Virus record (IMG/VR): IMGVR_UViG_3300045988_004573
Coordinates: 1 to 64,000 of that record
Reading direction: 5' to 3' (one strand)
DNA: 64,000 nucleotides
From: a virus
The position numbers and the translations under genes are program-made. Numbering within the stretch: position 1 is the first letter of the stretch; the number at the start of each line of letters is the position of its first letter. Below the pieces are notes generated by a model, which did no database searches, was not told where the DNA came from, and saw only the letters and a program-made list of their open reading frames with translations. Shown in pieces: positions 3,261 through 21,882 of the stretch.

Positions 3261-5540
3261 CTAACTAGTTGCCATATCTTTTACTAAATTTACTGGTTTC
3301 TTGAATCTCTTGTCATAGTTATTGGTGAAGAATGGGTCATTGCCTATATAATCCTTTGGAGTAGCATCCTTATCCCTACTAGGATTACCTTGATATAGTA
3401 CCATCTTCTCCTCTCTATATAACATAACCATACCTAATGCCCTGATTCTATCCACATTTATCTCAGGATTGAATGCTATAAGCTCTTCTATCAAGGCTCT
3501 GTTCCTCAAGAAGAACAGGTTCTGAGTAACTACTTCCTGTTCTACTCCACCTATAGTAGTAATCATAGTTACAGGCTTCATCAACCAATCCCTTATAAGA
3601 CCATTGGCATAGTTGTTTATAGCTGCTGTAGCATTGACACCCTTCTGGTTACTACCAAAGGAGCTGTACTTAATCATCTGCTTATCCCTCAGGTACTCAG
3701 GAGTATCAGCTAACAAGTGAGTACAGTTCATCTTTGCAAAGTAGGCATAGATACCCTTCTTATTGGACTCATAGAGGCACTTGGCATTATAAAACAAACA
3801 TAACAATCTCACTATCTCAAAGTTATCCTCTGCAAATGCTTGTCTACCTGTATATTCAGCTACTATCTTGTCAGTCCATAAGTCCAATACAAATGTAGAT
3901 GACAGTGATGATGACTCAGCTTGGTCATTATCTACAGGGTCATGCCCTATTATATACCTAGTGTTGGGTACTTTACCACTCCTATCTTTCTCAGGTAACT
4001 CAAATATCTCTATAGCTCCTGGTGTATCATTCTCTACTCCATACTTTCTGATAGGCTCATCACTAGTAGGTTTGAACTCCACTTCTCCACTCTTATTCAT
4101 AACCAGCTTACCTATATACACATCATCAAATGAGTGAACATCAGTGTCAAGCTGCTGTAGTCTTTCAGTCAATGCTGTAACTGGGAAGAATGCTGCCTTT
4201 ACCTTAATAATAGCCTCAGCAGGTGTAATAGGGTCTTCCGCTATTACTCTAAGAACTGACTTAGGGTCAGCACTATACTTAGCCTTATGCCTTTGCATAA
4301 GTATCTCTATCAGTGCTTTTACTACATCAGATACTCCATCCTTGTTATAACATCCTGCTCTATTTACATATGATGGGAAGAAATAACCAAATGTAGGTTT
4401 ACCTTGCTTAGGTCTATCATATACATTCTCTACTGCAAGTATATTATAAGCCTCTGGGTAATATAATAGAGTCTTAGCTGAGTTAAAGTCTGATTCATCC
4501 TCAGCAGCAGTACCTACCAGATACATGGTAGCAAATGTATAGTCACCATCCTCTACTGATTTTCTGGTAATATCATATAGAGACAGTAGTCCCTTGAATG
4601 AACCCATCTCCTCGAATAGAATCCAACCTCTCTTACCTCTCAGCTTTTCACTATCATCCTTAGCTGATACTGCCAATACCTGATTGAGTGAGCCTCTTTC
4701 AATGCCATACTCATCCTTATAACCCATCTGCCATGACATCTCATTAGGAGAGTTCTTCAACATAAGGTGAGGGAAAGGAGTATGAGAGAAACTAAAGTTA
4801 ATAGCAGGCTTGAACTTAGATAGTGTACCATCCTTATTATCAGATAGATATTCCTTCTGATAAGCAGTCAGTACTGTAATAACCCTTCTTCTGGACTCTT
4901 CTGATTCCCCTAAGATAAGATTATGTCCCATAATAGCTGAGAGTGAGTATGACTTGGCACATCCTCTCTTAGCCAACTCAATAGCATGATGACCTTGCTC
5001 TCTAGCATCAAACAGATAGTAATACCTCCATACATTACCCTCTTGTATAAAAGGGAATGACTCTACTCTGACAGCTTTCTTCCTACCCTCAGTAATCTTG
5101 TTTACCATCATAGGCTGATAGTTCAAGAACCAGTAGTTAAAACCTGAAATCCATGCACCATCTGAGGGTCTTACTAGACCCTCCCAACATCTTCTTCTCT
5201 CCTCATCCCAGAACTTCCTGAACTCAGAGTTAGGATTACTATTGGGTTTTAGGAATGTATAACACCCATGCTTCTGATAGTGTAATGCAGCTTGTCTAAA
5301 GTAGTCAGCATCCTCAAGTATAGGAGGATTAGTTATATCCACTATTGCAGCACCTCTCTCATCCCTAGGTAAATCCTTATAGTAAGGTCTATCTGGAGAT
5401 ATGAGGTTCTTAATGAATTGTATGTTAGTCAGACAATCCATAAGCTGCTCTGCTACCTCACTTGGCAAACTATCAAGTAGCTCCTGTGTGACAGGAGTCT
5501 GATACCTGTTAGTCTGTATCAGTACCTTTATATCTTCCAT
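3261..5540 (-). CDS. terL: terminase large subunit
   Basis: 759 aa; Walker A-like KRGCAKSYS, Walker B-like WILFEEMG, C-terminal nuclease-like IIGHDPVDND; adjacent to portal. Confidence 0.8.
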   Translation of the reverse strand: MEDIKVLIQTNRYQTPVTQELLDSLPSEVAEQLMDCLTNIQFIKNLISPDRPYYKDLPRDERGAAIVDITNPPILEDADYFRQAALHYQKHGCYTFLKPNSNPNSEFRKFWDEERRRCWEGLVRPSDGAWISGFNYWFLNYQPMMVNKITEGRKKAVRVESFPFIQEGNVWRYYYLFDAREQGHHAIELAKRGCAKSYSLSAIMGHNLILGESEESRRRVITVLTAYQKEYLSDNKDGTLSKFKPAINFSFSHTPFPHLMLKNSPNEMSWQMGYKDEYGIERGSLNQVLAVSAKDDSEKLRGKRGWILFEEMGSFKGLLSLYDITRKSVEDGDYTFATMYLVGTAAEDESDFNSAKTLLYYPEAYNILAVENVYDRPKQGKPTFGYFFPSYVNRAGCYNKDGVSDVVKALIEILMQRHKAKYSADPKSVLRVIAEDPITPAEAIIKVKAAFFPVTALTERLQQLDTDVHSFDDVYIGKLVMNKSGEVEFKPTSDEPIRKYGVENDTPGAIEIFELPEKDRSGKVPNTRYIIGHDPVDNDQAESSSLSSTFVLDLWTDKIVAEYTGRQAFAEDNFEIVRLLCLFYNAKCLYESNKKGIYAYFAKMNCTHLLADTPEYLRDKQMIKYSSFGSNQKGVNATAAINNYANGLIRDWLMKPVTMITTIGGVEQEVVTQNLFFLRNRALIEELIAFNPEINVDRIRALGMVMLYREEKMVLYQGNPSRDKDATPKDYIGNDPFFTNNYDKRFKKPVNLVKDMATS

Positions 5541-8422: not shown

Positions 8423-8440
8423 AGTCTTTAATTTAATTAG

Positions 8441-8513
8441 TTGCGGAGGAGGGACTCGAACCCTCAACCTCAAGGTTATGAGCCTTGCTAGCTACCATTG
8501 CTATCACTCCACG
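8441..8513 (-). tRNA. tRNA-Met(CAU), initiator-like
   Basis: minus-strand cloverleaf read by eye; anticodon loop CUCAUAA; C1xA72 mismatch as in bacterial initiators; T-loop GGTTCGAGTCC. Confidence 0.8.
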
Positions 8514-8519
8514 ATGTTG

Positions 8520-8591
8520 AGCAGATAGAGAGAATCGAACTCTCACCAAAAGATTGGAAATCTCTTATACTAACCTTTATACGATACCTGC
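8520..8591 (-). tRNA. tRNA-Gly(UCC)
   Basis: acceptor GCAGGTA/TATCTGC; anticodon loop UUUCCAA; T-loop TTCGATT. Confidence 0.85.
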
Positions 8592-8993
8592 TTGTTTATT
8601 CTTATAATGTAAGTCTCTATGGCAATTAGCACATAGGACTCTGCACTTTTTAATCTCCTCTTCAAGCTTTCTTGGGGACTCTATCAATTTAACAACCTCT
8701 TTTTCCTTCTCATCAGGATTAACATGATGAAAATCTAAGCACCAAGGTCTGCTTTCCCCACATATCTCACATTTCAAAGTACTTTTATACTCCTCAAACT
8801 CTGCTGTCTTCTTCTTTTTATATTCAGCAGCTTTTGTTTTGTAGTACTCTTTATGTTCCTGATAATGCTTATCTCTGTATATCTTTCTACAAGACTTGCA
8901 ATCTGAGGCATGACCATCCTTTCTTAGTTTATTTATTGCAAACTCAGAGATTGGTTTTAGCTCTCCACATTTACTGCACTTCTTCATTTCCAT
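8577..8993 (-). CDS. HNH homing endonuclease (free-standing, inside tRNA array)
   Basis: 138 aa; Cys-rich N-terminus; LDFHHVNPDEKE ... CANCHRDLH HNH core; 3' end overlaps tRNA-Gly by 15 nt. Confidence 0.8.
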   Translation of the reverse strand: MEMKKCSKCGELKPISEFAINKLRKDGHASDCKSCRKIYRDKHYQEHKEYYKTKAAEYKKKKTAEFEEYKSTLKCEICGESRPWCLDFHHVNPDEKEKEVVKLIESPRKLEEEIKKCRVLCANCHRDLHYKNKQAGIV

Positions 8994-8995
8994 TG

Positions 8996-9068
8996 AGTAG
9001 ATAATCAGATTTGAACTGACCCCTTGACATTGGCAATGTCATATGCTAACCCCTAACACCATATCTAC
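8996..9068 (-). tRNA. tRNA-Gly(GCC)
   Basis: acceptor GTAGATA/TATCTAC; anticodon loop UUGCCAA. Confidence 0.85.
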
Positions 9069-9254
9069 ATAAGCCAAAGATTTGCTATTGGTACTTTGGC
9101 ATTGCAAGTGTCAGCTTAACTTGCACCCTCAATCATCTACACCTCATAAAAGCTTTTTAACTGAATGCCGCAGGTCAGCTCCTGCTGAGGTTTACCTAGT
9201 AGCATTGAGTGTTACTCTCTCACTGTAGGTAAGACAGCTTTTAGTAACTTGTTG

Positions 9255-9328
9255 AGCCTCCTCTCAGAATCGAACTGAGACTTCCTGTTTACAAGGCAGG
9301 CTTGCTAAACCATTAACACTAAGGAGGC
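9255..9328 (-). tRNA. tRNA-Thr(UGU)
   Basis: acceptor GCCTCCT/AGGAGGC; anticodon loop CUUGUAA. Confidence 0.85.
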
Positions 9329-9332
9329 ATAG

Positions 9333-9414
9333 TACCCCTGACAGGATTTGAACCTGCAATCCTCAAGGGCGTTGGTGTTTAAGACCAATGTGTATTCCAT
9401 TCCACCACAGGGGC
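9333..9414 (-). tRNA. tRNA-Leu(UAA)
   Basis: acceptor GCCCCTG/CAGGGGT; anticodon loop CUUAAAC; long variable arm. Confidence 0.85.
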
Positions 9415-9421
9415 ATTATAC

Positions 9422-9874
9422 TTAGTAAGGTCTCAAATCACATAACTCAAATAGGTACTTATATTTCAGTATATTATGTATGAATGTCTCACACTCAGAC
9501 CTAATACCTGCATATAGTGTTCCCTCTGGGATATTCTCATAGAACTTAGTAGTTCCTGCTTTAACCTCATTGATGAAGTCCATAGCATTGAGAGCATCAC
9601 TAGGAGTACCCTTAATCACATTAGGTTGCATATGTCCAAGCAATCCCTGATACTCCTCTGCCAACCCATCCTGATAGTCTGATATAACATCTAGGAACTC
9701 ATCTAGGTAGACATGGATATTCTTCTTAGGAGCTGCCCAATGCAGGTTCTTACACTTAGTCTTCCAACCCTCCAGAAGGTTAATGAAGCTAATGAAGAAC
9801 TGACTAGGGTTCTCATCTTGAGAAGTCTTGAACATCTCATCCATTAGCTGATTATCTAGAAAAACACTATCCAT
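9422..9874 (-). CDS. hypothetical protein, weak Dps/ferritin-like helix pattern
   Basis: 150 aa; KNLHWAAPKKNIHVYLDEF...DGLAEEYQGLLG resembles the Dps helix A/B pattern; by eye only. Confidence 0.45.
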   Translation of the reverse strand: MDSVFLDNQLMDEMFKTSQDENPSQFFISFINLLEGWKTKCKNLHWAAPKKNIHVYLDEFLDVISDYQDGLAEEYQGLLGHMQPNVIKGTPSDALNAMDFINEVKAGTTKFYENIPEGTLYAGIRSECETFIHNILKYKYLFELCDLRPY

Positions 9875-9899
9875 TCCTCTTACTCTTGATTTGATACTG

Positions 9900-9907
9900 C
9901 AAAGTTA
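9900..9907 (-). promoter_or_regulatory. Bacteroidetes-type -7 box TAACTTTG
   Basis: plus CAAAGTTA within CTGCAAAGTTAAGCAAAAT, ~25 nt upstream of the 9874 start. Confidence 0.5.
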
Positions 9908-9960
9908 AGCAAAATATTTAACCTGTGCAAGTAAATTACATTATTTAACTAAAATATCTG

Positions 9961-10043
9961 TACTCTCTAAGGGACTCGAACCCTTACACCTCTCGGCACT
10001 AGAGCCTAAATCTAGCGTGTCTACCAAATTCCACCAAGAGAGC
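9961..10043 (-). tRNA. tRNA-Leu(UAG)
   Basis: acceptor GCTCTCT/AGAGAGT; anticodon loop UUUAGGC; long variable arm. Confidence 0.85.
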
Positions 10044-10051
10044 ATAAGCTC

Positions 10052-10651
10052 TTATAGAGAGCTATATTCTTTTGTAGCATCAAAACTAGGGCAAGCCTTA
10101 TTAGCAAAGTCCCTATGACCATGTATAGATGCTTGAGGGTACTTAGTCTTTAACTCCTTAAGTAACTTAACTAATGACTGCTTCTGCTCAGTAGTCCTAG
10201 TATCTTTAGGTGTCTTACCATCAGAAGCACATCCTCCTATATAGCATACTCCAATAGAGTTAGTATTATGACCAGTGCAGTGCGCACCTATAATAGACTC
10301 ATCTCTACCTATATGTATAGAACCATCTCTATATATTACATAATGGTAGCCTATATCAGAGAAACCTCTTTGAAGATGCCATTGTCTTATAGTATCTACA
10401 CTATAGTCTTTACCTTCTGGTGTAGCACTGCAATGCACTATCAACTCCTTTATATTCCTCTTATTCACTGAGAGATTGAGCTTAGATAAAGTATTAGCTC
10501 CAACAATACCATCCACTTCAAGACCATTAGACCTCTGGAAGTCTTTGACAGCTTCCTCAGTCAGAGGACCAAATATCCCATCTGCCTTTAGGTTCAGCTT
10601 CTCTTGAAGAGCCTTTACCTCATTACCTCTACTACCTAGTTTCAGTACCAT
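10052..10651 (-). CDS. endolysin: PG-binding domain + N-acetylmuramoyl-L-alanine amidase
   Basis: N-terminal GSRGNEVKALQ..DGIFGP.T..AV..FQ (PG_binding_1-like); C-terminal HCSATPEG, GYHYVI, GAHCTGHN, SIGVCYIGG (amidase_2-like). Confidence 0.85.
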   Translation of the reverse strand: MVLKLGSRGNEVKALQEKLNLKADGIFGPLTEEAVKDFQRSNGLEVDGIVGANTLSKLNLSVNKRNIKELIVHCSATPEGKDYSVDTIRQWHLQRGFSDIGYHYVIYRDGSIHIGRDESIIGAHCTGHNTNSIGVCYIGGCASDGKTPKDTRTTEQKQSLVKLLKELKTKYPQASIHGHRDFANKACPSFDATKEYSSL

Positions 10652-10666
10652 ACCTTAATATATTAG

Positions 10667-10741
10667 TGGACATTCATAGAATCGAACTATGTTCTAGGGT
10701 TTTTCAGACCCTCGCAATGTAACCATACCTGCCCAATGTCC
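10667..10741 (-). tRNA. tRNA-Phe(GAA)
   Basis: acceptor GGACATT/AATGTCC; anticodon loop CUGAAAA. Confidence 0.85.
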
Positions 10742-10808
10742 ATATAGCTTATTCTAGTCTCTACCCTAGTCACCACTCATAAGCTAAGAGCAATCCTTTC
10801 TATTGAAG

Positions 10809-10889
10809 TGGGAAGTAAAGGAGTCGAACCTATTCAACCAGAGGTGTCAGATTTACAGTCTGAGGCTATCACCGTGTAGCACACTTCCC
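10809..10889 (-). tRNA. tRNA-Tyr(GUA)
   Basis: acceptor GGGAAGT/ACTTCCC; anticodon loop CUGUAAA; long variable arm. Confidence 0.85.
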
Positions 10890-11069
10890 ATAATTAGTTA
10901 TTATAGTTCCTCATTCAGCAAAAGGGTTATTCCTTGATAATAGGAATACACCCTGTAGGAGTCCAATAGTAACTAGTAGCACTTCTTTCTATATACCACT
11001 TTACTTCTCTTTTCACTAAATTAAGAACTCTTCTCATAACATATAAAATTTGAAGTTAAACATGTTATG

Positions 11070-11142
11070 TTCCCCCACTAGGAGTCGAACCTAGCTCTCA
11101 GGATTAAAAGTCCAGAGCATCCACCATCAATGCTTTGAGGGA
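11070..11142 (-). tRNA. tRNA-Lys(UUU)
   Basis: acceptor TCCCTCA/TGGGGGA; anticodon loop CUUUUAA. Confidence 0.85.
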
Positions 11143-11211
11143 GTGAAGCAGGGTCTTTTATAGAGGTTTCATCTTATTCCTAGGAAAGATTTTACCCTGC
11201 ATACCCTCTAG

Positions 11212-11285
11212 TGCCTCCACAAGGACTTGAACCTTGAGTCCCCTGTTTAAGAGACAGGTGCTTTAACCAATTCAGCTATAGAGGC
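11212..11285 (-). tRNA. tRNA-Lys(CUU)
   Basis: acceptor GCCTCTA/TGGAGGC; anticodon loop CUCUUAA. Confidence 0.85.
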
Positions 11286-11293
11286 TTATATAG

Positions 11294-11368
11294 ACTTGGA
11301 GGTGGGATTTGAACCCACGAATCACCAGTTTTGCAGACTGTGCCCTTAAACCACTCAGGTACTCCAAG
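11294..11368 (-). tRNA. tRNA-Cys(GCA)
   Basis: acceptor CTTGGAG/CTCCAAG; anticodon loop CUGCAAA; slightly irregular variable region. Confidence 0.7.
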
Positions 11369-11369
11369 A

Positions 11370-11774
11370 TTATATCTTAATCAATCCCGCATGAATCTCT
11401 CTATGGCAATTGGCGCAAACCAATATACACTTATCTATTTCTGGTTTGAGAGATTCAAATGACTTAGTCCCTCCACTAATAGTAAAGTCTTTCTCTTGTG
11501 GGTTCAAATGATGAAACTCAAGAGCATTCATACATTTGTTATATCCACATATCTGACATCTACCACCCTTGTACTCTATAAGCCTCTGTTTTACAATACT
11601 TCTATACCTTGAAGTATCTCTTACAGGCTTTATTTGTCTATTAGGTCTTTTCTTAAAAACTATAAACTTTTTTAGAGCTTCATAGGATATATGAAGAGTT
11701 TTCGCTACAACTTTTATATTACCTACTTTGTCATATAGCTTCTGAGCTTCTACTTTTCTATCTTCACTTATCAT
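11370..11774 (-). CDS. HNH homing endonuclease with N-terminal HTH (start trimmed to MISEDRK...)
   Basis: CQICGY..., LEFHHLNPQEKD, CANCHREIH; the first 42 codons of track ORF 11370..11900 overlap two tRNA genes, so the ATG at 11774 is preferred. Confidence 0.8.
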   Translation of the reverse strand: MISEDRKVEAQKLYDKVGNIKVVAKTLHISYEALKKFIVFKKRPNRQIKPVRDTSRYRSIVKQRLIEYKGGRCQICGYNKCMNALEFHHLNPQEKDFTISGGTKSFESLKPEIDKCILVCANCHREIHAGLIKI

Positions 11775-11776
11775 AG

Positions 11777-11853
11777 TACTGGCAGAGGGGATTGAACCCA
11801 CATGCAACCTATTACCCTTTCTACTGTGTATAAGACAGAGGGGATATGCCAGT
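11777..11853 (-). tRNA. atypical tRNA-like gene (no recognisable D-arm; anticodon-like loop CUUAUAC = UAU)
   Basis: perfect 7-bp acceptor ACTGGCA/TGCCAGT and T-arm GTGGG-TTCAATC-CCCTC; the interior folds as one long bulged arm capped by CUUAUAC. Confidence 0.4.
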
Positions 11854-11860
11854 ATATTGG

Positions 11861-11935
11861 GGTGTCTGATGGGACTTGAACCCACACTACTTGGAGCCAC
11901 AATCCAAGGCTCTAGACCAATTAAGCTACAGACAC
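11861..11935 (-). tRNA. tRNA-His(GUG)
   Basis: acceptor GTGTCTG/CAGACAC; discriminator C; anticodon loop UUGUGGC. Confidence 0.85.
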
Positions 11936-11937
11936 AG

Positions 11938-12009
11938 TTCTGATGAGTGGACTCGAACCACTAGCTACTGCCTTATGAGAGCAGCTTTCTACCATTGAAA
12001 TACATCAGA
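11938..12009 (-). tRNA. tRNA-Met or Ile2 (CAU), elongator-type
   Basis: acceptor TCTGATG/CATCAGA; anticodon loop CUCAUAA. Confidence 0.8.
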
Positions 12010-12015
12010 ATATAG

Positions 12016-12087
12016 TTGGCATACATGGAATTGAACCATGATTACTACCTTATCAGAGTAGCTTCCTAACCATTAGAAGATATGCCA
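12016..12087 (-). tRNA. tRNA-Ile(GAU)
   Basis: acceptor TGGCATA/TATGCCA; anticodon loop CUGAUAA. Confidence 0.85.
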
Positions 12088-12096
12088 ATACTCTTG

Positions 12097-12167
12097 CATA
12101 CTCTTAAAGACTCGAACTCTAACCAATGGTTTTGGAGACCATTATGCTACCATTACACCAAGAGTAC
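12097..12167 (-). tRNA. tRNA-Trp(CCA)
   Basis: acceptor GTACTCT/AGAGTAT; anticodon loop CUCCAAA. Confidence 0.85.
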
Positions 12168-12176
12168 ATTCTATTG

Positions 12177-12248
12177 CGGGACCTGTAAGACTCGAACTTA
12201 CATCTGAGGGTTAACAGCCCACTGTTCTGACCTTTGAACTAAAGACCC
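12177..12248 (-). tRNA. tRNA-Asn(GUU)
   Basis: acceptor GGGTCTT/AGGTCCC (one mismatch); anticodon loop CUGUUAA. Confidence 0.8.
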
Positions 12249-12256
12249 AATAATTG

Positions 12257-12330
12257 TTGCTCCTGTAGGAATTGAACCTACGACCTTTTCCTTGTAAGGG
12301 AACTATTCTTAACCACTGAACTAAGGAGCA
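12257..12330 (-). tRNA. tRNA-Val(UAC)
   Basis: acceptor TGCTCCT/AGGAGCA; anticodon loop CUUACAA. Confidence 0.85.
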
Positions 12331-12423
12331 ATGTAGGCTCTCACTGTGGAGAGCCTTTCTACACTAAGAAAAGTGTAGGTGTCCTAACAAACGCTCTAAC
12401 ACTATGAAACACGGAAACTAATG

Positions 12424-12497
12424 TGGAGAATGAGGGACTTGAACCCTGAACTCCTCCTTGCAAGGGAGGTGTGTTAGCCAATTACACCACAAACCCC
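12424..12497 (-). tRNA. tRNA-Ala(UGC)
   Basis: anticodon arm CCTCC-CUUGCAA-GGAGG; G3-U70 pair present; two U-U mismatches in the acceptor stem. Confidence 0.75.
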
Positions 12498-12502
12498 ATT
12501 AG

Positions 12503-12575
12503 TAGAGTAGACAAGACTCGAACTTGCAATATCTGCATCCCAAATGCAGGAGGTTAACCATTACCCAACTACTCT
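12503..12575 (-). tRNA. tRNA-Pro(UGG)
   Basis: acceptor AGAGTAG/CTACTCT; anticodon loop UUUGGGA. Confidence 0.85.
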
Positions 12576-12581
12576 ATATAG

Positions 12582-12668
12582 CGGAGAGCTATGTACTCGA
12601 AACATATACCCATTATAGGTACAATCTGCTTAGCAGGCAGTCCCTAGAACCCTCTAGGTTAACTCTCC
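12582..12668 (-). tRNA. tRNA-Ser(GCU)
   Basis: acceptor GGAGAGT/GCTCTCC; anticodon loop CUGCUAA; long variable arm; unusual U53-A61. Confidence 0.8.
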
Positions 12669-12856
12669 TTCTTCACATACAAGCTACAATGACACTCATC
12701 ATTCTCTCTATAATCTGAGCAAGGACAATGCTTATCAGTACCTGTATTATGACATGGACACTCACCACCATTTAACTCTACTCTCTTCAAGATAGCATTA
12801 ACCACCTTATCATTAGGGTTAAGCATCCAGCTTTCTTTCCTTAATATCTGTATCAT
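12659..12856 (-). CDS. ferredoxin-thioredoxin-reductase catalytic-chain-like mini-protein
   Basis: 65 aa with CPC-x8-CPC-x8-CHC cysteine pattern (FTR beta-chain-like); embedded between two tRNA-Ser genes. Confidence 0.55.
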   Translation of the reverse strand: MIQILRKESWMLNPNDKVVNAILKRVELNGGECPCHNTGTDKHCPCSDYRENDECHCSLYVKKES

Positions 12857-12858
12857 AG

Positions 12859-12950
12859 AGGAGGATGTCAGACTCGAACTGACACACCACTGTTACATGA
12901 TTACTAGTAGTTTTCAAGACTACTGCCTTACCAATTAGGCTTAATCCTCC
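12859..12950 (-). tRNA. tRNA-Ser(UGA)
   Basis: acceptor GGAGGAT/ATCCTCC; anticodon arm GTAGT-CUUGAAA-ACTAC; long variable arm. Confidence 0.85.
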
Positions 12951-13002
12951 ATTTGCCTACCTACCGCTGTAGGATAGGACTTTGGTTCTGTTATAAGTGT
13001 GC

Positions 13003-13073
13003 AGACTATGAGGGAATTGAACCCTAACCTTCACATTGACAGTGTGATATGCAAACCATTACACTACATAGCC
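13003..13073 (-). tRNA. tRNA-Asp(GUC)
   Basis: acceptor GGCTATG/CATAGTC; anticodon loop CUGUCAA; ends +/-1 nt. Confidence 0.8.
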
Positions 13074-13080
13074 TATATAG

Positions 13081-13152
13081 TAGAGTCACTGGGAATTGAA
13101 CCCAGATTTCTGCCTTGAGAGGGCAGTTGCCTAACCTTTAGTAGATGACTCC
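13081..13152 (-). tRNA. tRNA-Glu(CUC)
   Basis: acceptor GGAGTCA/TGACTCT; anticodon loop CUCUCAA. Confidence 0.8.
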
Positions 13153-13158
13153 ATTTAG

Positions 13159-13230
13159 TAGGGAAGTAAGGACTTGAACCTTATCCTCAGCCTTGAAAGA
13201 GCTACGACCTAACCTATAGTCTACATCCCC
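13159..13230 (-). tRNA. tRNA-Glu(UUC)
   Basis: acceptor GGGGATG/CTTCCCT (one mismatch); anticodon loop CUUUCAA. Confidence 0.8.
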
Positions 13231-13239
13231 ATCTCTTAG

Positions 13240-13311
13240 TACCCCCTGAGGGAATCGAACCCCCATTAAAGGCTTAGAAGACCCTTGCATTATCCATTAT
13301 ACTAAGAGGGC
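13240..13311 (-). tRNA. tRNA-Arg(UCU)
   Basis: acceptor GCCCTCT/AGGGGGT; anticodon loop CUUCUAA. Confidence 0.85.
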
Positions 13312-13319
13312 ATTCCTAG

Positions 13320-13391
13320 TTGGGACTAGAGGACTCGAACCTCTGCTATAAGAGCCAAAATCTCATGTGACTACCACTACACCAAGTCCCA
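13320..13391 (-). tRNA. tRNA-Gln(UUG)
   Basis: acceptor TGGGACT/AGTCCCA; anticodon loop UUUUGGC. Confidence 0.85.
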
Positions 13392-17831: not shown

Positions 17832-18018
17832 CATTTTGCTTAGAGTAGATACTGGTTCGAGTCCAGTTGGAGGTACAATGTCTATTTAACCACTATTTCC
17901 TGACTCTGCTGGGCAAAATGACTGAAAATGTGGTGCTAATGGGTAAGCCATAGTTTCTTGTTTTAGCTTGTACTTTGTTCTTAGAAAAGAAGCAAAGCAA
18001 TTGGGGAATCACATTTGG

Positions 18019-18102
18019 GAATGTATAGCTTAATGGTAAAGCAGCGTGGTACCACTTCAAAACAATGAGAGCAAGATGTAGGTTCAACTCCTACTGCATT
18101 CC
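18019..18102 (+). ncRNA. aberrant 84-nt tRNA-like RNA
   Basis: acceptor GAATGTA/TGCATTC (extendable to 8-9 bp); D-arm GCTT-AATGGTA-AAGC; T-arm GTAGG-TTCAACT-CCTAC; the 34-nt central part does not form a standard anticodon arm and carries GCAG...ACTTCAA as in the insertion family. Confidence 0.5.
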
Positions 18103-18183
18103 TATCTCAATAGTAGTTAAAATGCACAGCCAGCATTGTATCTATGTATCTAACTGGTCATAGTATATGCTGGCACTACTCAT

Positions 18184-18586
18184 GGGGCTGTTTGGTTTTG
18201 ACTGGTGGCTACTGGGTATGAGGACATGCAGAGACTGATGGAGAGACATCAAAACTTTAGGTGGCAACAGAATTTCTGCACCTGTAGCTCTTGCTGCTTA
18301 AGCAATCTACTGAGTTGGTCACTGACTTGGAAACAGAATAGTGACAAAACAAATAAGGTCAAGAAGGAAGTATAATAAGGCTATACCTACTTTCAGTGCT
18401 TAATGGCTGTGATGCACACAGAGGGTGTGACCTTTCAGATTTCTTGCATAGATGAATGCAAGTGGTGGATGATGTTGACAATCCAGTCAACCCCAGCAGA
18501 GAACCAACTGCATAATAAAGTGGTAAGCATGTGTAATCCTTATATTGAGGGCTATTAGGACAGGGGTTCGACTCCCCTCAGCTCCA
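18184..18586 (+). ncRNA. ssrA: tmRNA
   Basis: 5' GGGGCTGTTTGGTTTTGAC; 3' GGACAGGGGTTCGACTCCCCTCAGCTCCA; acceptor with G3-U70; internal tag frame ...GGC AAC AGA ATT TCT GCA CCT GTA GCT CTT GCT GCT TAA (..NRISAPVALAA stop, 18263-18301). Confidence 0.85.
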
Positions 18587-18617
18587 CAATTAACATCAAC
18601 AATTAAATTACATTAGA

Positions 18618-19427: not shown

Positions 19428-20840
19428 ATGTGTTCTAAATTAAATCCAAGATTAAAGCCTGCACCTAAGTTTGAGGGCACTCAACTGGCAGGTGGTTATG
19501 GTGCTTTGGCTGCTAGACAATCCAATGTAGCATTGCTTAGAAGAGCAGTGCTGGCTAATCTCCTTTGGGAAGATGTAGCATACATGGATGGAATTTCAGT
19601 AGCCAGTGAGATTAAGAGGTTAATACCTCTGTGCCCTGCTGAGGATGTATATAACATAGCTCTTGAAGCTAGGTTAATGCAGAAGCTGAGACATACTCCA
19701 TTGTTCATAGCAGTGGAAATGTGCAAGTACCCTGAACATAAGTTATTTGTTAAGGACTTGTTACCTAAGATAATCACAAGAGCTGATATGCTCACTGACT
19801 TCTTGGCTATATATTGGAAGGACAAGAAATGCCCTATCTGTAATCAAGCTAAGAAAGGTCTGGCTTTAGCCTTCCACAACTTCAATGAGTATAAGTTGGC
19901 TAAGTATGACAGAGATGCTGCTATCAAGCTCAGAGATGTGATGTTCTTAGTACATACTAAGCCTAGAAACCAATATGAGCAGGAGTTGTTCAATAAGGTA
20001 GCTGAGAGAACTCTTACACCTCCTGAGACATGGGAAGTCATGTTATCTAGAGGTGAGGATAAGAAAGCTACTTGGACTAAGCTCATTACAGAAGGTAAGA
20101 TAGGAGGATTAGCTATGTTGAGGAATATAGCTAATATGCAGAAAGCTAATGTGGATAGAAAGACTATTCAAGATGGTCTTAAAACACTAAGAAGCTCAAT
20201 GCTATTACCTCTTGACTTCTGGAAGGCTGCTAGGATGAACTCAGTATTTGAGAGAGACATTGAGGATGCTATGATTGAGGCATATAAGAACTTACCTAAA
20301 CTTCCTGGTAAGACACTGTTTATAGTGGATGTATCAGGTTCTATGGGTTCTTTAACCTCTGGTAGTTCTCAGTTCAATAGAATGGACCAAGCCTGTGCTA
20401 TGGCTATCTTGGCAGCTAATCAGTGCGAGGACTATGAGCTTGTAGCTACAGCAGGTAATGATGGTTCTAGAAAGAATGCCTCAGAGTGGATTGAATATCC
20501 TAAGAGAGGTTTTGCTCTTGCTCCACAGATAATGGAGACCAGACATAGGATTGGTGGCGGAGGTATATTCACCAGACAATGCCTAGAGTGGTGTAAGGAT
20601 AAGTTCAAAGACAAGAAGTTTGATAGAATTATCATATTCTCAGACTCTCAAGACTGTGACTATCCTGAGAAGAGAGTGCCTAAACCTTTTGGTACTTACA
20701 ACTATATTTGTGATGTGTCAGCACACACAAAAGGTGTAAACTACAGAGGTACATGGACTGCTGAGATAAGTGGTTTCTCGGAGCATTTCATTACATTCAT
20801 TGCAGCAATGGAAGGTGTTCAGAATACCTTTGAAGAATAA
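19428..20840 (+). CDS. rsr: Ro60 ortholog (TROVE domain + vWA/MIDAS)
   Basis: 470 aa; TROVE-like LLWEDVAYMDG, EARLMQKLRHTPLFIAVEM, KYDRDAAIKLRDVMFLVHTKP, LAMLRNIANM; vWA MIDAS FIVDVSGSMGS, GGGG-I-F-T, IIIFSDSQD. These align by eye with recalled human Ro60 motifs ([45 protein letters not shown]). Confidence 0.85.
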   Translation: MCSKLNPRLKPAPKFEGTQLAGGYGALAARQSNVALLRRAVLANLLWEDVAYMDGISVASEIKRLIPLCPAEDVYNIALEARLMQKLRHTPLFIAVEMCKYPEHKLFVKDLLPKIITRADMLTDFLAIYWKDKKCPICNQAKKGLALAFHNFNEYKLAKYDRDAAIKLRDVMFLVHTKPRNQYEQELFNKVAERTLTPPETWEVMLSRGEDKKATWTKLITEGKIGGLAMLRNIANMQKANVDRKTIQDGLKTLRSSMLLPLDFWKAARMNSVFERDIEDAMIEAYKNLPKLPGKTLFIVDVSGSMGSLTSGSSQFNRMDQACAMAILAANQCEDYELVATAGNDGSRKNASEWIEYPKRGFALAPQIMETRHRIGGGGIFTRQCLEWCKDKFKDKKFDRIIIFSDSQDCDYPEKRVPKPFGTYNYICDVSAHTKGVNYRGTWTAEISGFSEHFITFIAAMEGVQNTFEE

Positions 20841-20843
20841 AAC

Positions 20844-20987
20844 AAAGAGTACTGTGTAGTGTTTTGTCAGACTTACTTCATTAACTAAGTGGTATAGTGC
20901 AAAACTTTTAATTTTGATGTCACAGGTTCGAGTCCTGTATGAGATTGGGGAAACCCAAGTCTGACATCTGTTCTCCAGTACTCTTTT
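20844..20987 (+). ncRNA. Y-RNA-like element: tRNA-like cloverleaf enclosed by two long terminal helices
   Basis: starts 4 nt after the rsr stop; 11-bp perfect stem 20844-20854/20976-20986 then TTTT; 8-bp stem 20865-20872/20959-20966; inside: D-arm ACTA-AGTGGTA-TAGT, arm CAAAA-CUUUUAA-TTTTG, T-arm ACAGG-TTCGAGT-CCTGT, plus a GAAA-capped hairpin. Confidence 0.6.
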
Positions 20988-20994
20988 CAATATG

Positions 20995-21125
20995 GAGGAG
21001 TTAGCTCAGTTGGTTAGAGCACTTAATGTTACTCTGTCAAATGTTCCATAGTAATATTGGTGGCAGATAGAGTTACTTCGGAATTGCTAATTCAGTGGTC
21101 ATAGGTTCAAATCCTATACTCCTCC
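20995..21125 (+). tRNA. tRNA gene with ~57-nt insertion after position 26 (anticodon-like loop UUGCUAA)
   Basis: acceptor GAGGAGT/ACTCCTC; canonical D-arm GCTC-AGTTGGTTA-GAGC; T-arm ATAGG-TTCAAAT-CCTAT; insertion ends in AGAGTTACTTC. Confidence 0.6.
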
Positions 21126-21190
21126 CTTACTTTGTTGGATTTTGTGTGTTCTACCTCACTGGTATGTGAATATAGGTGAGGTTTCTACAA

Positions 21191-21328
21191 GGCGGAGTAG
21201 CTAAATGGTAAAGCAACACCCTTACAGGATTTCTCTGGTAAAGCAGTAGTGAGTTGTCAGGGTTACTTCAAGGTTATAGCATTAGTTTTGGGTACTAAAG
21301 TATGTAAGTTCGAGTCTTACCTCCGCCA
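21191..21328 (+). tRNA. tRNA-Pro(UGG)-like gene with ~64-nt insertion between D-arm and anticodon stem
   Basis: acceptor GGCGGAG/CTCCGCC; D-arm GCTA-AATGGTA-AAGC; intact arm TTAGT-UUUGGGU-ACTAA; T-arm GTAAG-TTCGAGT-CTTAC; insertion carries GCAGTAGTGAGTTGTCAGGGTTACTTCAAG. Confidence 0.65.
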
Positions 21329-21532
21329 CTTATTACCTACCTCACCTAGCGTAGTTGTACAGAGTGAGACCTAATAGGAGGCATCAAAGGAACTATCCTA
21401 GTCACACTGGTGTGCTGTTCAGTGAGTGAGAAAATGAGCAGCCCCGAAGCATAGTGGGGATAATGTCAAGGAGTACCATCCTTAAGCAGCTATGTAAAAC
21501 TGGTTGACAATCTGGAAAGACAGATAATAAAT

Positions 21533-21660
21533 GGGGGAGTAGCTAAATTGGTTACAATACTCTAGCTGTTATTCTCTGGAAGCAGTAGTGTTAGCAAAGA
21601 GTTACTTCAAGCATTCATCTGATAAATGAAAGTATATTGGTTCGAGTCCAATCTCCCCCA
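21533..21660 (+). tRNA. tRNA-Ile(GAU)-like gene with ~53-nt insertion in the D-loop region
   Basis: acceptor GGGGGAG/CTCCCCC; intact arm TTCAT-CUGAUAA-ATGAA; T-arm ATTGG-TTCGAGT-CCAAT; insertion carries GCAGTAGTGTTAGCAAAGAGTTACTTCAAG. Confidence 0.65.
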
Positions 21661-21882
21661 CAAGATAGAGGTTAGTGAATGTTACAGTTACTTCATATTA
21701 TGACTAGTATATTTATTTAACATTCAATCAAGAAAGGAGTAGATTTATTTACAACTTTTCAATTCAACCAACTGTGGCAGAGTTGTTCTACCTCTATTAA
21801 GAGGGCTGTGGTAGCAATACTATAGTCCTCTTTCTTTTTGATAACTGTGTTAGCTACATATATTGTATTACTAAAAAAAAGT

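What the first reader, a model, noticed from the sequence alone, without database searches (positions are those of the whole stretch)
20995..21660. Three tRNA genes carrying 53-64-nt structured insertions with a shared motif
**Seen**
- At 20995-21125, 21191-21328 and 21533-21660 the acceptor stem, T-arm and (for the last two) perfect Pro(UGG) and Ile(GAU) anticodon arms are intact.
- An extra segment sits between the D-arm and the anticodon stem in each.
- The insertions share GCAGUAGUG-N(8-11)-GUUACUUCAAG (21243-21272 and 21582-21611; variant at 21048-21080).
- In each insertion an AGUAG/UUACU-type hairpin can form.
- In each, the hairpin loop can also pair with the segment just upstream:
  - ACCCUUACA with UGUCAGGGU.
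  - CUCU-AGC with GCU-AA-AGAG.
  - ACU-CUGUC with GGCAG-GAUA-AGU.
- Different sequences giving the same architecture is covariation-like support.
- Related motif copies occur at 20856-20880 (in the Y-like element), 21672-21695 and 18041-18060.

**Established knowledge:** bacterial and phage tRNA introns are group I introns of 200 nt or more and lie in the anticodon loop. Small introns at other tRNA positions are an archaeal feature.

**Inference**
- These are either a new kind of small tRNA-embedded element or intron.
- Or they are tRNA-scaffolded RNAs that present a common protein-binding module.
- The Ro60 gene lies immediately upstream, and Pro(UGG) and Ile(GAU) both exist as normal copies at 12503 and 12016.
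Basis: partly seen in the sequence, partly recalled or inferred. Interest (0 to 1): 0.8.

Follow-up and report, generated by a model that had tools for sequence, protein, structure and literature searches.

The report
Y-RNA stems grafted into phage tRNAs
Three tRNA-shaped genes next to the Ro60 gene of a crAss-like gut phage each carry a built-in copy of the stem that Ro60's partner "Y RNAs" use, which makes them a new, inside-out form of the known tRNA-like Y RNAs rather than tRNAs with introns.

Summary
Three 128-138-nt tRNA-like genes (20995-21125, 21191-21328, 21533-21660) lie downstream of a TROVE/Ro60 gene in a crAss001-like phage, and each carries a shared ~50-nt module.

The anatomy needs correcting:
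- The module is one irregular hairpin: P1 (8-9 bp), an internal loop (..GUU / UG..), then P2 (5 bp with a conserved bulged U).
- An invariant single-stranded UUACUUC follows it.
- P1 and P2 both covary.
- In T2 and T3 the D-stem closes around the module, so the insertion is in the D-loop. In T1 it interrupts the 5' strand of the anticodon stem.

The same motif forms the terminal 5'/3' stem of two flanking Y-like RNAs (20846-20984, 21664-21797). It also forms that stem in Rfam-detectable YrlA-like RNAs beside related TROVE genes in Xanthomonas and Caulobacter phages. Its 5'-strand signature lies beside TROVE genes in 64 of 80 genome-collection loci, many of them on large bacterial contigs.

The insertions are therefore Y-RNA (YrlA-class) stems closed by a loop and grafted into complete, unpermuted tRNA scaffolds, most likely as Ro60-binding modules. 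They are not introns. Anticodon loops differ strikingly between close relatives.

This is a new variant of a known kind. Ro60 binding and expression are inferred, not shown.

The parts
19428..20840 (+). TROVE/Ro60 homologue (470 aa, TROVE plus a vWA-like C-terminal part). It heads the locus.
   Evidence: ORF. Pfam TROVE E = 6e-11; vWA_Ro60 is weak. 72-96% identical to the TROVE proteins of crAss001-like phages.
20846..20984 (+). Y1: an open-form Y-like RNA.
- The 5'/3' ends form the terminal stem (20846-20854 with 20976-20984).
- Bulged U at 20857; UAGUG at 20857-20861, opposite GUUCU at 20970-20974.
- Second helix: 20866-20874 with 20957-20965.
- UUACUUC at 20873-20879 runs into the acceptor stem of an unpermuted tRNA-Lys(UUU)-like domain (20875-20946).
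   Evidence: Rfam tRNA 59 bits for the core. The MFE fold recovers both helices, z = -3.2. Coordinates.
20995..21125 (+). T1: a tRNA-like RNA with a normal acceptor stem, D-arm and T-arm.
- The Y-stem module interrupts the 5' strand of the anticodon stem after C27-U28.
- A short anticodon-like hairpin remains at 21081-21093 (loop UUGCUAA, GCU).
   Evidence: Rfam tRNA 47.5 bits with a 70-nt insert. ARAGORN calls Ser(GCU) after deletion. Across 22 relatives, 99.4% of cells are paired.
21031..21079 (+). T1 module.
- P1: 21031-21038 with 21066-21073.
- P2: hairpin 21046-21060 with a GUAA loop and a bulged U.
- Flanked by GUUCC and UGGUG.
- ss UUACUUC at 21073-21079.
   Evidence: Model R1, 61 bits. 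MFE fold. Covariation. Coordinates.
21191..21328 (+). T2: a tRNA-Pro(UGG)-like RNA.
- The D-stem (21200-21203 with 21277-21280) encloses the module, so the insertion is in the D-loop.
- The anticodon arm is intact (21282-21298), as are the T-arm and the acceptor stem.
   Evidence: D-stem pairs UA/CG and GC/UA swap between lineages. ARAGORN calls Pro(UGG) after deletion.
21218..21269 (+). T2 module.
- P1: 21218-21226 with 21255-21263.
- P2: 21233-21249 (CUCUG-GUAAAG-CAG-U-AG).
- UAGUG at 21247-21251.
- ss UUACUUC at 21263-21269, followed by AAGGUUA (the G18G19-like part of the D-loop).
   Evidence: R1, 64.3 bits. Folds. Covariation.
21533..21660 (+). T3: a tRNA-Ile(GAU)-like RNA.
- The module lies in the D-loop, after GGUUA.
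- The D-stem 5' strand GCU (within 21542-21545) pairs with AGC just 5' of the anticodon arm (about 21610-21612).
- The anticodon arm is intact (21614-21630).
   Evidence: ARAGORN calls Ile(GAU) after deletion.
21559..21608 (+). T3 module.
- P1: 21559-21567 with 21593-21602.
- P2: 21574-21588.
- UAGUG at 21586-21590.
- ss UUACUUC at 21602-21608.
   Evidence: R1, 62.8 bits..
21664..21797 (+). Y2: an open-form Y-like RNA without a tRNA-like payload.
- Terminal stem: 21664-21672 with 21790-21797.
- Bulged U and UAGUG at 21673-21677, opposite GUUCU at 21785-21789.
- P1: 21680-21687 with 21772-21779.
- UUACUUC at 21688-21694.
   Evidence: Motif scan: 0 hits on the minus strand and 0 in 50 shuffles. 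MFE fold. The tail is conserved in relatives.
21799..21842 (+). Terminator-like hairpin plus a T-run that closes the TROVE/ncRNA array.

Best explanation
T1, T2 and T3 are non-coding Y-RNA/tRNA chimeras that belong to the phage's Ro60 (TROVE) system.

**What they are**
- Each is a complete, unpermuted tRNA-like scaffold: an open 7-bp acceptor stem, a T-arm, D-stem elements and an anticodon-type hairpin.
- Into each scaffold a Y-RNA stem has been grafted as a closed hairpin.
- From the tRNA side the graft reads: helix P1, a small internal loop (..GUU opposite UG..), two base pairs (C-G plus U-A or C-G), a bulged U, three more pairs and a loop.
- The 3' strand then continues into an invariant single-stranded UUACUUC.

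**Why this is a Y-RNA stem**
- The same motif, opened at the loop, is the terminal 5'/3' stem of the neighbouring Y-like RNAs Y1 and Y2.
- It is also the terminal stem of YrlA-type Y RNAs beside related TROVE genes in other phages. Its 5'-strand signature recurs beside TROVE genes in bacterial genome collections.
- In those RNAs UUACUUC occupies the position of the published Ro60-binding motif GNCGAAN0-1G.

**Proposed mechanism (inferred)**
1. The TROVE gene and the five RNAs are transcribed together early in infection.
2. RNase P and the 3'-end tRNA-processing enzymes cut at the tRNA-like bodies. This also frees Y1 and Y2.
3. The module binds the phage Ro60.
4. The tRNA-shaped body acts as the effector domain. 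It would tether or gate Ro60 towards factors that recognise tRNA shape or anticodon loops.

The insertion is a permanent functional part of the RNA, not an intron.

**Shown:** the anatomy, the covariation, the motif identity with Y-RNA stems, and the genomic linkage to TROVE.
**Inferred:** transcription, processing, Ro60 binding and the effector role.
For: **Structure**
- P1, P2, the enclosing D-stem and the tRNA helices pair in 95.5% (31 sequences) and 99.4% (22 sequences) of cells. Slid controls give 34-52%.
- For the module alone, 92% of cells pair, and 4 of 5 P2 pairs change on both sides.
- An independent set from more distant lineages pairs in 88.6% of cells, against 36-47% when slid. 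Ten of 14 pairs change on both sides.
- Single-sequence MFE folds recover P1 and P2 with the bulged U.

**Specificity**
- Model R1 finds only the three sites in 64 kb. The next best hit scores 14.5 bits.
- All 128 hits in 48 relatives (411 kb) are on the TROVE strand, within about 1 kb downstream of TROVE.
- The module is also present in lineages with 56-75% TROVE identity.

**Link to Y RNAs**
- Y1 and Y2 carry the same motif in open form.
- Xanthomonas phage 10KY502B has Rfam YrlA matches of 55.9, 46.7 and 25 bits. Their 5' strand reads ..GG-U-GGUG-N-helix-GGUUACUUC and their 3' strand reads helix-N-GUUCC-CC.. .
- In those matches GGUUACUU aligns to the YrlA consensus CgaAUGCuu.
- The same pattern occurs in Caulobacter phage CcrPW.
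- The 5'-strand motif is present in 64 of 80 genome-collection TROVE loci, with 193 hits on the TROVE strand against 20 on the other.

**tRNA scaffold**
- ARAGORN calls normal tRNAs once the module is removed.
- Published work shows that YrlA RNAs are tRNA mimics encoded next to Ro60. One YrlA is cut by RNase P and receives CCA (PMC4201824).
- The TROVE gene of crAss001 is an early gene (PMC8375218).
Against: - There are no expression, processing or binding data for any of these RNAs.
- The motif differs in sequence from the published GNCGAAN0-1G/CGAA motif. Its assignment as the Ro60 site rests on position and co-occurrence.
- Rfam YrlA does not match T1-T3. The only hit in the window is a spurious 21.4 bits.
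- All characterised Y RNAs present the Ro60 site in a stem made from the RNA's own 5' and 3' ends. A loop-closed version has never been shown to bind.
- A pure Ro60-tether model does not explain two features of T2 and T3: the fully canonical anticodon arm with a 7-nt loop, and its rapid change of anticodon.
- T2 also has a local D-arm-like alternative (GCUAAAUGGUAAAGC).
Confidence: 0.72

Rival explanations
1. The tRNA bodies are mainly processing and stability scaffolds. They would act as natural 'tRNA scaffolds', or as punctuation of a polycistronic RNA. RNase P and RNase Z cut at them, which releases and stabilises the Y modules and the flanking Y1 and Y2. The tRNA shape would have no partner-recruiting role. 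The module still binds Ro60.
For: - Y1 ends 10 nt before the 5' end of T1, and Y2 starts 4 nt after the 3' end of T3. crAss001 and cr106_1 have the same layout.
- There is one terminator-like site at the end of the array.
- T1-type anticodon hairpins are often degenerate.
- From my own knowledge: engineered tRNA scaffolds and the herpesvirus tRNA-miRNA units work this way.
Against: - This does not explain why T2/T3-type RNAs keep a canonical 5-bp/7-nt anticodon arm and G18G19-like residues.
- It does not explain why anticodons are exchanged between close relatives.
Confidence: 0.25
2. The insertions are a new class of small intervening sequence. They would be excised, by a host or phage activity or by self-cleavage, to give extra mature tRNAs: Ser(GCU), Pro(UGG) and Ile(GAU).
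For: - Deleting the module yields sequences that ARAGORN accepts as tRNAs.
- ARAGORN in intron mode reports T1 as Ser(GCU) with a 57-nt intron.
- From my own knowledge: permuted and split tRNAs are processed into normal tRNAs in some archaea and algae.
Against: - No ribozyme or intron family matches at E <= 5. At 50-65 nt the insertion is far below group I size.
- The insertion sits at two different, non-anticodon-loop positions.
- The module is conserved in sequence like a functional RNA and also occurs outside tRNAs.
- Normal Pro(UGG) and Ile(GAU) genes already exist. The scaffolds are at most 72% identical to any of the phage's canonical tRNAs.
- Orthologues change anticodon. Some have 8-nt loops, A33 or broken stems.
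- From my own knowledge: no bacterial splicing endonuclease for such sites is known.
Confidence: 0.06
3. They are working tRNAs that keep the expansion and act in translation. The expansion would serve as a regulatory or identity feature unrelated to Ro60.
For: - T2 and T3 have intact acceptor, T and anticodon arms, with U33 and a purine at position 37.
- GG residues remain in the D-loop region.
Against: - The anticodon stem of T1 is interrupted.
- Anticodon identity is not conserved among orthologues.
- The module is the Y-RNA stem motif and is strictly linked to TROVE.
- From my own knowledge: a 55-75-nt D-loop has no precedent in a decoding tRNA.
Confidence: 0.05
4. They are decaying tRNA pseudogenes disrupted by a small mobile repeat.
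For: - The motif is repeated five times in 840 nt.
- The locus is mosaic between relatives.
Against: - All helices are kept by compensatory changes across lineages down to 56% TROVE identity.
- There are no copies elsewhere in the window or in about 0.6 Mb of flanks.
- Acceptor and T arms are 100% paired.
Confidence: 0.02

Closest known systems
YrlA (Rfam RF02553), the bacterial and phage tRNA-like Y RNAs that partner with Ro60/Rsr (Chen et al. 2014, PMC4201824; structure: bioRxiv 10.1101/312249)
   Same: - Encoded beside a TROVE/Ro60 gene on the same strand, often several in tandem.
- Modular: a Ro60-type stem plus a tRNA-like domain with conserved D and T arms.
- The stem motif of T1-T3 is the one found in YrlA-like RNAs of related phage TROVE loci. 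Its 5'-strand signature recurs at bacterial TROVE loci.
- T1 is topologically a circular permutation of YrlA: D-arm, then the GUUCY strand; the URGUG..UUACUUC strand, then the variable region and T-arm.
   Different: - In YrlA the stem is formed by the RNA's own 5' and 3' ends. The tRNA part is permuted, the acceptor stem is closed by a loop, there is no free CCA end and no anticodon loop.
- In T1-T3 the acceptor stem is open and the Y stem is closed by a loop. An anticodon-type hairpin is present.
- In T2 and T3 the stem leaves from the D-loop, not from the anticodon-stem position.
- The motif reads UUACUUC rather than GNCGAAN0-1G.
- They score below the Rfam threshold.
Metazoan Y RNAs, D. 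radiodurans Yrn1 and the Thermus phage phiLo Yrl1/Yrl2 (PMC12135203)
   Same: - Stem-bulge-stem architecture, with a bulged pyrimidine on the 5' strand (open form) followed by two pairs and an internal loop.
- phiLo shows that a phage-encoded Ro60 can have phage-encoded partner RNAs.
   Different: - Sequence motifs differ (GGUCCGA, CGAA).
- Those RNAs have no complete tRNA scaffold.
- The likeness to the metazoan bulged helix is recalled from the literature and was not tested here.
Bacterial and phage tRNA group I introns, and archaeal small tRNA introns at non-canonical positions
   Same: Extra sequence interrupts a tRNA gene. The archaeal introns can lie in the D-arm or other positions and are small.
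   Different: - There is no group I core (no Rfam match; 50-65 nt).
- The sequence is not in the anticodon loop.
- No bulge-helix-bulge was sought.
- The insert is itself a conserved, TROVE-linked RNA motif that also exists outside tRNAs.
tRNA scaffolds and tRNA-linked small RNAs: engineered tRNA scaffolds with cargo in the anticodon stem, and gammaherpesvirus tRNA-miRNA units (from my own knowledge)
   Same: A tRNA body carries a foreign structured RNA and supplies RNase P/Z processing and stability. The cargo position in T1 (anticodon stem) matches the engineered design.
   Different: - These are natural phage genes.
- The cargo is a Y-RNA stem.
- The D-loop cargo site of T2 and T3 has no counterpart that I know of.

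Membership tests
YrlA / Y RNA (Ro60 partner RNAs) | Encoded close to a Ro60/TROVE gene on the same strand | tested here: met
   - The TROVE ORF is 19428-20840(+), and the RNAs lie at 20846-21797(+).
- All 128 module hits in 48 relatives are on the TROVE strand, within about 1 kb downstream.
YrlA / Y RNA (Ro60 partner RNAs) | Conserved stem with a bulge or internal loop carrying the Ro60-binding motif | tested here: inconclusive
   - The module shares helix / bulged U / RG:CY pairs / UG-GUU loop / helix / UUACUUC with Rfam-detectable YrlA-like RNAs of Xanthomonas and Caulobacter phages. Its 5'-strand signature is present in 64 of 80 genome-collection loci.
- UUACUU aligns to the consensus AUGCuu at the GNCGAAN0-1G position.
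- The literal published motif is absent.
YrlA / Y RNA (Ro60 partner RNAs) | The stem is formed by pairing the RNA's own 5' and 3' ends | tested here: not met
   - In T1-T3 the stem is closed by a 4-9-nt loop, and the RNA ends form a tRNA acceptor stem.
- The feature is met by the neighbours Y1 and Y2.
YrlA / Y RNA (Ro60 partner RNAs) | tRNA-like domain with conserved D and T arms | tested here: met
   - Rfam tRNA scores 47.5 bits for T1, with partial hits for T2 and T3.
- T-loop is GUUCGAGUC / GUUCAAAUC, and GG is kept in the D-loop region.
- ARAGORN calls tRNAs after the module is deleted.
YrlA / Y RNA (Ro60 partner RNAs) | Circularly permuted tRNA order (T-arm before D-arm, acceptor closed by a loop, no anticodon loop) | tested here: not met
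   The order is the normal one (acceptor 5', D, anticodon hairpin, T, acceptor 3'), with an open acceptor stem.
YrlA / Y RNA (Ro60 partner RNAs) | Reaches the Rfam RF02553 gathering score (69 bits) | tested here: not met
   The only match in the window is 21.4 bits, E = 0.4. It spans the 3' part of Y1 and the 5' part of T1.
YrlA / Y RNA (Ro60 partner RNAs) | Physically bound by Ro60 | not testable with these tools
   Needs RIP/CLIP or EMSA with the phage TROVE protein.
Canonical decoding tRNA | Continuous cloverleaf with a normal D-loop and an uninterrupted anticodon stem | tested here: not met
   - T2 and T3 carry 50-65 extra nt in the D-loop. T1 carries them in the 5' strand of the anticodon stem.
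- ARAGORN without the intron option does not call T1 or T3. For T2 it gives only a mis-registered Pro call at the 3' part.
Canonical decoding tRNA | Anticodon identity conserved among orthologues | tested here: not met
   - Orthologous scaffolds carry UGG, AGG, GUA, UGU, GGU, CGU, GAU, CAU, UGA, UUU, UUC and GUG. Some have 8-nt loops or A33.
- The anticodon loop is the most variable region within subgroups.
Group I intron in a tRNA gene | Catalytic core (P3-P9), at least ~200 nt, inserted in the anticodon loop | tested here: not met
   - No Intron_gpI match in 20995-21660 at E <= 5. The window's true group I intron at 46848-47081 is detected.
- The size is 50-65 nt, and the sites are the D-loop and the anticodon stem.
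Archaeal-type small tRNA intron | Bulge-helix-bulge motif at the exon-intron junctions, plus a splicing endonuclease | not tested
   - No BHB search was run.
- The 52.7-102.7 kb half of the crAss001 record that I looked at lists no splicing endonuclease or RNA ligase.

The most novel reading that the evidence does not exclude
The T RNAs may be Ro60-tethered tRNA mimics that can be charged, or at least display an anticodon. Their anticodon loops would be diversified under selection.
- They could act as decoys, sensors or recruiters aimed at host factors that read anticodon loops, for example anticodon nucleases of anti-phage defence systems or particular aminoacyl-tRNA synthetases.
- The bound Ro60, possibly with a host exonuclease, would then capture, protect or destroy the target.
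- Unlike YrlA, these RNAs keep exactly the two features YrlA lacks: a free acceptor end and an anticodon loop.
- The locus would also display the intermediates of the proposed evolution of Y RNAs from tandem tRNAs, with the tRNA attached to the same Y stem at the acceptor stem, the anticodon stem or the D-loop.
Probability: 0.12. Interest if true: 0.85.

Novelty: new variant of a known kind. Interest (0 to 1): 0.66.

Why it matters
**For Y-RNA biology**
- tRNA-like Y RNAs (YrlA) are known, but what their tRNA-shaped domain does is an open question.
- These phage RNAs join the same Ro60-type stem to complete tRNAs with an open acceptor end and an anticodon loop. Their anticodons are swapped between close relatives.
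- That gives a natural series of variants for testing what the tRNA part recruits.
- It also offers visible intermediates for the proposed origin of Y RNAs from tandem tRNAs.

**For annotation and gut-phage work**
- About 0.9 kb after the TROVE gene of crAss001 and its relatives is packed with five or more unannotated structured RNAs.
- Ordinary tRNA finders miss or mis-call them.
- crAss001 and its relatives are cultivable on Bacteroides intestinalis, so the predictions can be tested directly.

Tried and rejected
Rejected. The G covaries inside P2 (pair 49-60 CG/AU), UUACUUC is invariant, and 0-1 nt separate P1b from UUAC.
- **P2 loop (GAAG/GUAA) pairing with CUUC/UUAC.** The sequences are complementary, but the tail starts directly at the base of P1, about 16 bp from the loop. 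I set this aside.
- **Known ribozyme, intron or riboswitch in the insertions.** Nothing in Rfam at E <= 5.
- **T2 and T3 as recent copies of the phage's own Pro and Ile tRNAs with an insertion.** Identity to any canonical tRNA is at most 72%, and the best matches are other isoacceptors.
- **R1 hit at 11609-11680(-), 14.5 bits.** It lies in an HNH-like ORF and is noise.
- **The 18041-18060 'copy'.** Not supported.
- **The search for homologous proteins.** It listed only relatives at 77% identity or more, so it did not help reach distant lineages. tblastn against the phage collection and alignment-based locus searches did.
- **Long 'tRNA-like' hits in bacterial loci from my acceptor-pairing script.** These are junctions of tandem open-form Y RNAs, not T-forms.
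- **A literal CGAA motif.** Present only by chance in some P2 loops (CCCGAAGGG) and not conserved.
- **Spacer RNAs 21126-21190 and 21329-21532.** Folded without a clear assignment.
Full report
**Where this is.** The window comes from a crAss001-like phage (Crassvirales, Steigviridae).
- The region 19400-21900 matches Bacteroides phages crAss001, PhiCrAssBcn and cr112_1 at about 75% DNA identity.
- The ORF 19428-20840(+) is a TROVE/Ro60 homologue (Pfam TROVE E = 6e-11).
- About 0.9 kb with no ORF follows it, ending in a terminator-like hairpin at 21799-21832.
- In the GenBank and RefSeq records of crAss001, PhiCrAssBcn1 and cr106_1 the equivalent stretch carries no annotation.

**Checking the observation.** The three elements exist as described.
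- T1 (20995-21125) matches Rfam tRNA end to end at 47.5 bits, with a 70-nt gap in the anticodon arm. T2 and T3 match only over their 3' parts.
- ARAGORN misses T1 and T3 and gives a mis-registered Pro call for T2.
- All three have perfect 7-bp acceptor stems and canonical T-arms.
- GTAGTG-N(5-20)-TTACTTC occurs 3 times against 0.06 expected.
- A relaxed version gives five hits within 840 nt on the + strand. Background is about 2.9 per 64 kb on both strands.

**Relatives and structure.** I collected 46 IMG/VR loci through the TROVE protein, plus crAss001 and PhiCrAssBcn1.
- Nearly all carry two or three 124-158-nt tRNA-like elements after TROVE.
- MAFFT alignments of 31 unique T2/T3-type and 22 unique T1-type sequences show a common module:
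  - P1a (ACUCUnnnn);
  - a joiner ending in GUU;
  - P2 (C-Y-NNN, loop, NNN, bulged U, R-G);
  - UG plus 0-4 nt;
  - P1b (nnnnAGAGU);
  - then an invariant UACUUC.
- Pair counts:

| Alignment | Sequences | Cells paired | Slid controls |
|---|---|---|---|
| T2/T3-type, whole RNA | 31 | 95.5% | 38-52% |
| T1-type, whole RNA | 22 | 99.4% | 34-51% |
| Module alone | 32 | 92.0% | 30-45% |

- In the module alignment 4 of 5 P2 pairs and 5 of 9 P1 pairs change on both sides.
- Single-sequence MFE folds recover P1 and P2 with the bulged U independently, in the window and in crAss001.

- In T2/T3-type RNAs the D-stem encloses the insertion.
  - Pairs 11-24 and 12-23 are C-G/U-A in the window group and U-A/G-C in the crAss001 group (helix 2).
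  - Several relatives have no local D-arm at all.
  - G18G19-like GG follows UUACUUC(AA) in most of them.
  - So the insertion is in the D-loop.
- In T1-type RNAs the D-arm is invariant and normal.
  - Two covarying pairs (C-G/G-C/G-U and U-A/G-C) close the anticodon stem.
  - The module then leaves from the 5' strand, and a short anticodon-like hairpin follows.
- The AGUAG/UUACU hairpin is not supported.
  - Its G is the covarying partner of a P2 base. It changes to U in six sequences, with a compensating C-to-A change.
  - UUACUUC never varies.
  - With 0-1 nt between P1b and UUAC, I judge a pseudoknot with the 8-9-bp P1 to be sterically implausible.
- When the module is deleted at these boundaries, ARAGORN calls Ser(GCU), Pro(UGG) and Ile(GAU) for the window. 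It calls Pro(AGG), Lys(UUU) and others for relatives.

**Specificity.** I built a covariance model of the module (R1).
- It finds only the three sites in the window, at 61-64 bits. The next best hit scores 14.5 bits and lies in an HNH-like ORF.
- In the 48 relatives (411 kb) all 128 hits are on the TROVE strand, within about 1 kb downstream of TROVE.
- An alignment-based search brought in lineages whose TROVE proteins are 44-75% identical.
  - Those at 56-75% identity still carry the module inside 122-138-nt tRNA-likes, with quite different P1 sequences such as CCCUGCCAU/AUGGUAGGG.
  - This set was not used to build the model. It keeps 88.6% of cells paired, against 36-47% when slid, and 10 of 14 pairs change on both sides.

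**What the module is.** The same two strands occur opened at the P2 loop in the two flanking RNAs.
- In Y1 (20846-20984) the P2-equivalent helix is made by the RNA's ends: AGAGUACUG..U..UAGUG at the 5' end and GUUCU.C.CAGUACUCU at the 3' end.
  - P1 is GUCAGACUU/AAGUCUGAC.
  - UUACUUC runs into an unpermuted tRNA-Lys-like domain.
- Y2 (21664-21797) has AUAGAGGU-[U]-AGUG-AA-UGUUACAG-UUACUUC ... CUGUGGCA-GAGUU-GUUCU-ACCUCUAU.
- crAss001 and cr106_1 carry further open copies.
- This is the classical Y-RNA layout. The link was confirmed outside crAss phages.
  - Xanthomonas phage 10KY502B has a TROVE protein about 38% identical. Three RNAs upstream of it match Rfam YrlA at 55.9, 46.7 and 25 bits.
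  - Their flanks read ..CUGG-U-GGUG-N-helix-GGUUACUUC and helix-N-GUUCC-CCAG.
  - GGUUACUU aligns to the YrlA consensus CgaAUGCuu. That is the position of the GNCGAAN0-1G motif that Chen et al. assigned to Rsr binding (PMC4201824).
  - Caulobacter phage CcrPW shows six tandem copies of the same pattern.
- In a scan of bacterial and archaeal genomes the 5'-strand signature occurs in 64 of 80 TROVE loci.
  - There are 193 hits on the TROVE strand against 20 on the other.
  - They usually occur as 2-8 tandem copies just upstream of the gene, in Hyphomonadaceae, Bradyrhizobium, Acidobacteriota and others.
- The two pairs next to the bulged U are A-G:C-U in most crAss copies. They are G-G:C-C in T1, Xanthomonas, Caulobacter and the bacterial loci, which is itself a compensated change.
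- The module is therefore the stem of the Y RNAs of this TROVE clade, closed by a loop.

**Topology.**
- YrlA is a permuted tRNA. [quoted passage not shown]
- T1 has the same strand connectivity: D-arm, then the GUUCY strand; the URGUG..UUACUUC strand, then the variable region and T-arm. Its acceptor is opened, its Y stem is closed, and it has an extra anticodon-type hairpin. It is a circular permutation of YrlA.
- Weaker R1 hits (25-42 bits) fall on the junctions between tandem open-form copies. This shows how permutation by tandem duplication could convert one form into the other.
- T2 and T3 attach the stem to the D-loop. Y1 attaches it to the acceptor stem. Y2 has no tRNA.
- I found unpermuted tRNA plus closed stem only in the crAss-like / Bacteroidales-phage lineage, including phage contigs binned into MAGs.

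**Anticodon loops.**
- T2/T3-type RNAs keep a 5-bp stem and a 7-nt loop, but the anticodon differs between close relatives. I saw UGG, AGG, GUA, UGU, GGU, CGU, GAU, CAU and UGA, plus an 8-nt loop and one family with A33.
- T1-type hairpins show UUU, UUC, GUG, GCU or a 9-nt loop.
- Within four subgroups the loop holds significantly more variable columns than the rest in three of them (Fisher p = 0.012, 0.15, 1.8e-4 and 3e-4). Part of this comes from block exchange of whole 3' halves.
- This argues against a fixed decoding role. It is the one feature that the simple Ro60-tether model does not explain.

**Mechanism and rivals.**
- Most likely, the array is co-transcribed with the early TROVE gene (crAss001: PMC8375218). 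It is cut at the tRNA-like bodies by RNase P and the 3'-end enzymes. Y1 ends 10 nt before T1 and Y2 begins 4 nt after T3. The modules then bind the phage Ro60, and the tRNA bodies serve as effector or gate domains.
- Only the anatomy, the covariation, the motif identity and the linkage are shown. Transcription, processing, binding and function are inferred.
- A scaffold-or-punctuation-only role for the tRNA bodies is a serious partial rival.
- The intron, plain-tRNA and pseudogene readings are disfavoured, as set out under the rival explanations.

**Novelty.**
- I found no paper that links crAss-like phages with Y RNAs.
- tRNA-like Y RNAs and phage Ro60/Y-RNA pairs are known (PMC4201824, PMC12135203). 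So this is a new variant of a known kind, not a new category.
- What is new:
  - loop-closed Y stems;
  - complete unpermuted tRNA scaffolds with an open acceptor end and an anticodon loop;
  - two new attachment sites;
  - anticodon turnover.

Noticed in passing
window 18184-18589 (+): A phage-encoded tmRNA (Rfam 90.3 bits) lies about 0.8 kb upstream of the TROVE gene. cr106_1 has a tmRNA annotated at the same relative place, and Rfam finds one in several IMG/VR relatives.
   Followed up: partly
window 18018-18103 (+): An 86-nt tRNA-like gene (Rfam tRNA 47.4 bits).
- About 25 extra nt lie in the anticodon arm, including a GUGGUACCAC hairpin followed by ACUUCAAAA.
- ARAGORN's Trp(CCA) call looks doubtful.
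- The module model does not hit it.
- It may be a T1-like RNA with a reduced or different insert.
   Followed up: partly
window 46848-47081 (+): A group I intron (Rfam 65.3 bits), far from the tRNA-like genes. Its host gene was not examined.
   Followed up: no
window 8440-13391 (-): An array of 25 canonical tRNA genes. The 490-nt gap at 11369-11857 holds an HNH-endonuclease-like ORF (..CANCHREIH..).
   Followed up: partly
window 21126-21190 and 21329-21532 (+): The spacers between the T genes are not empty.
- 21153-21182 forms a hairpin flanked by GUUCU, like a degenerate P2.
- The 204-nt T2-T3 spacer is 82-98% conserved in the closest relatives.
- Its 3' part (21400-21532) folds moderately well (z = -2.0), but its 5' part (21329-21450) does not (z = -0.2). 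It matches no Rfam family.
- These may be further RNAs of another type.
   Followed up: partly
L047 (crAss001) 4369-4447: In crAss001 the first RNA after TROVE is a different stem-loop RNA. It contains GGUCCAAG, which is close to the metazoan Ro60-binding GGUCCGA. The window has no counterpart. The locus content is mosaic between relatives.
   Followed up: no
L042 5649-5757 and 5918-6075: One relative carries 109- and 158-nt tRNA-like elements with a class-II-type D-arm (GCGGAAUGGUAGACGC) and other, unrelated insertions in place of the module.
   Followed up: no
L131-L210 (bacterial TROVE loci): Many bacterial chromosomes carry 2-8 tandem Y-RNA 5'-strand signatures (UGG[UC]G-N-[UA]UACUUC) just upstream of this TROVE clade. 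Examples are Hyphomonadaceae, Bradyrhizobium and Acidobacteriota. This is a motif variant that differs from the published GNCGAAN0-1G.
   Followed up: partly
window, whole: The heptamer TTACTTC occurs 27 times on both strands, against 12.7 +/- 3.4 expected. Only five of these are in the Y-RNA locus. The rest are unexplained.
   Followed up: no
L211 (crAss001 52.7-102.7 kb): The crAss001 record annotates a polynucleotide kinase (Gp61) and a HicA mRNase (Gp55), but no RNA ligase in this half of the genome. This could be relevant to an RNA-repair or tRNA-damage context for the Ro60 system.
   Followed up: no
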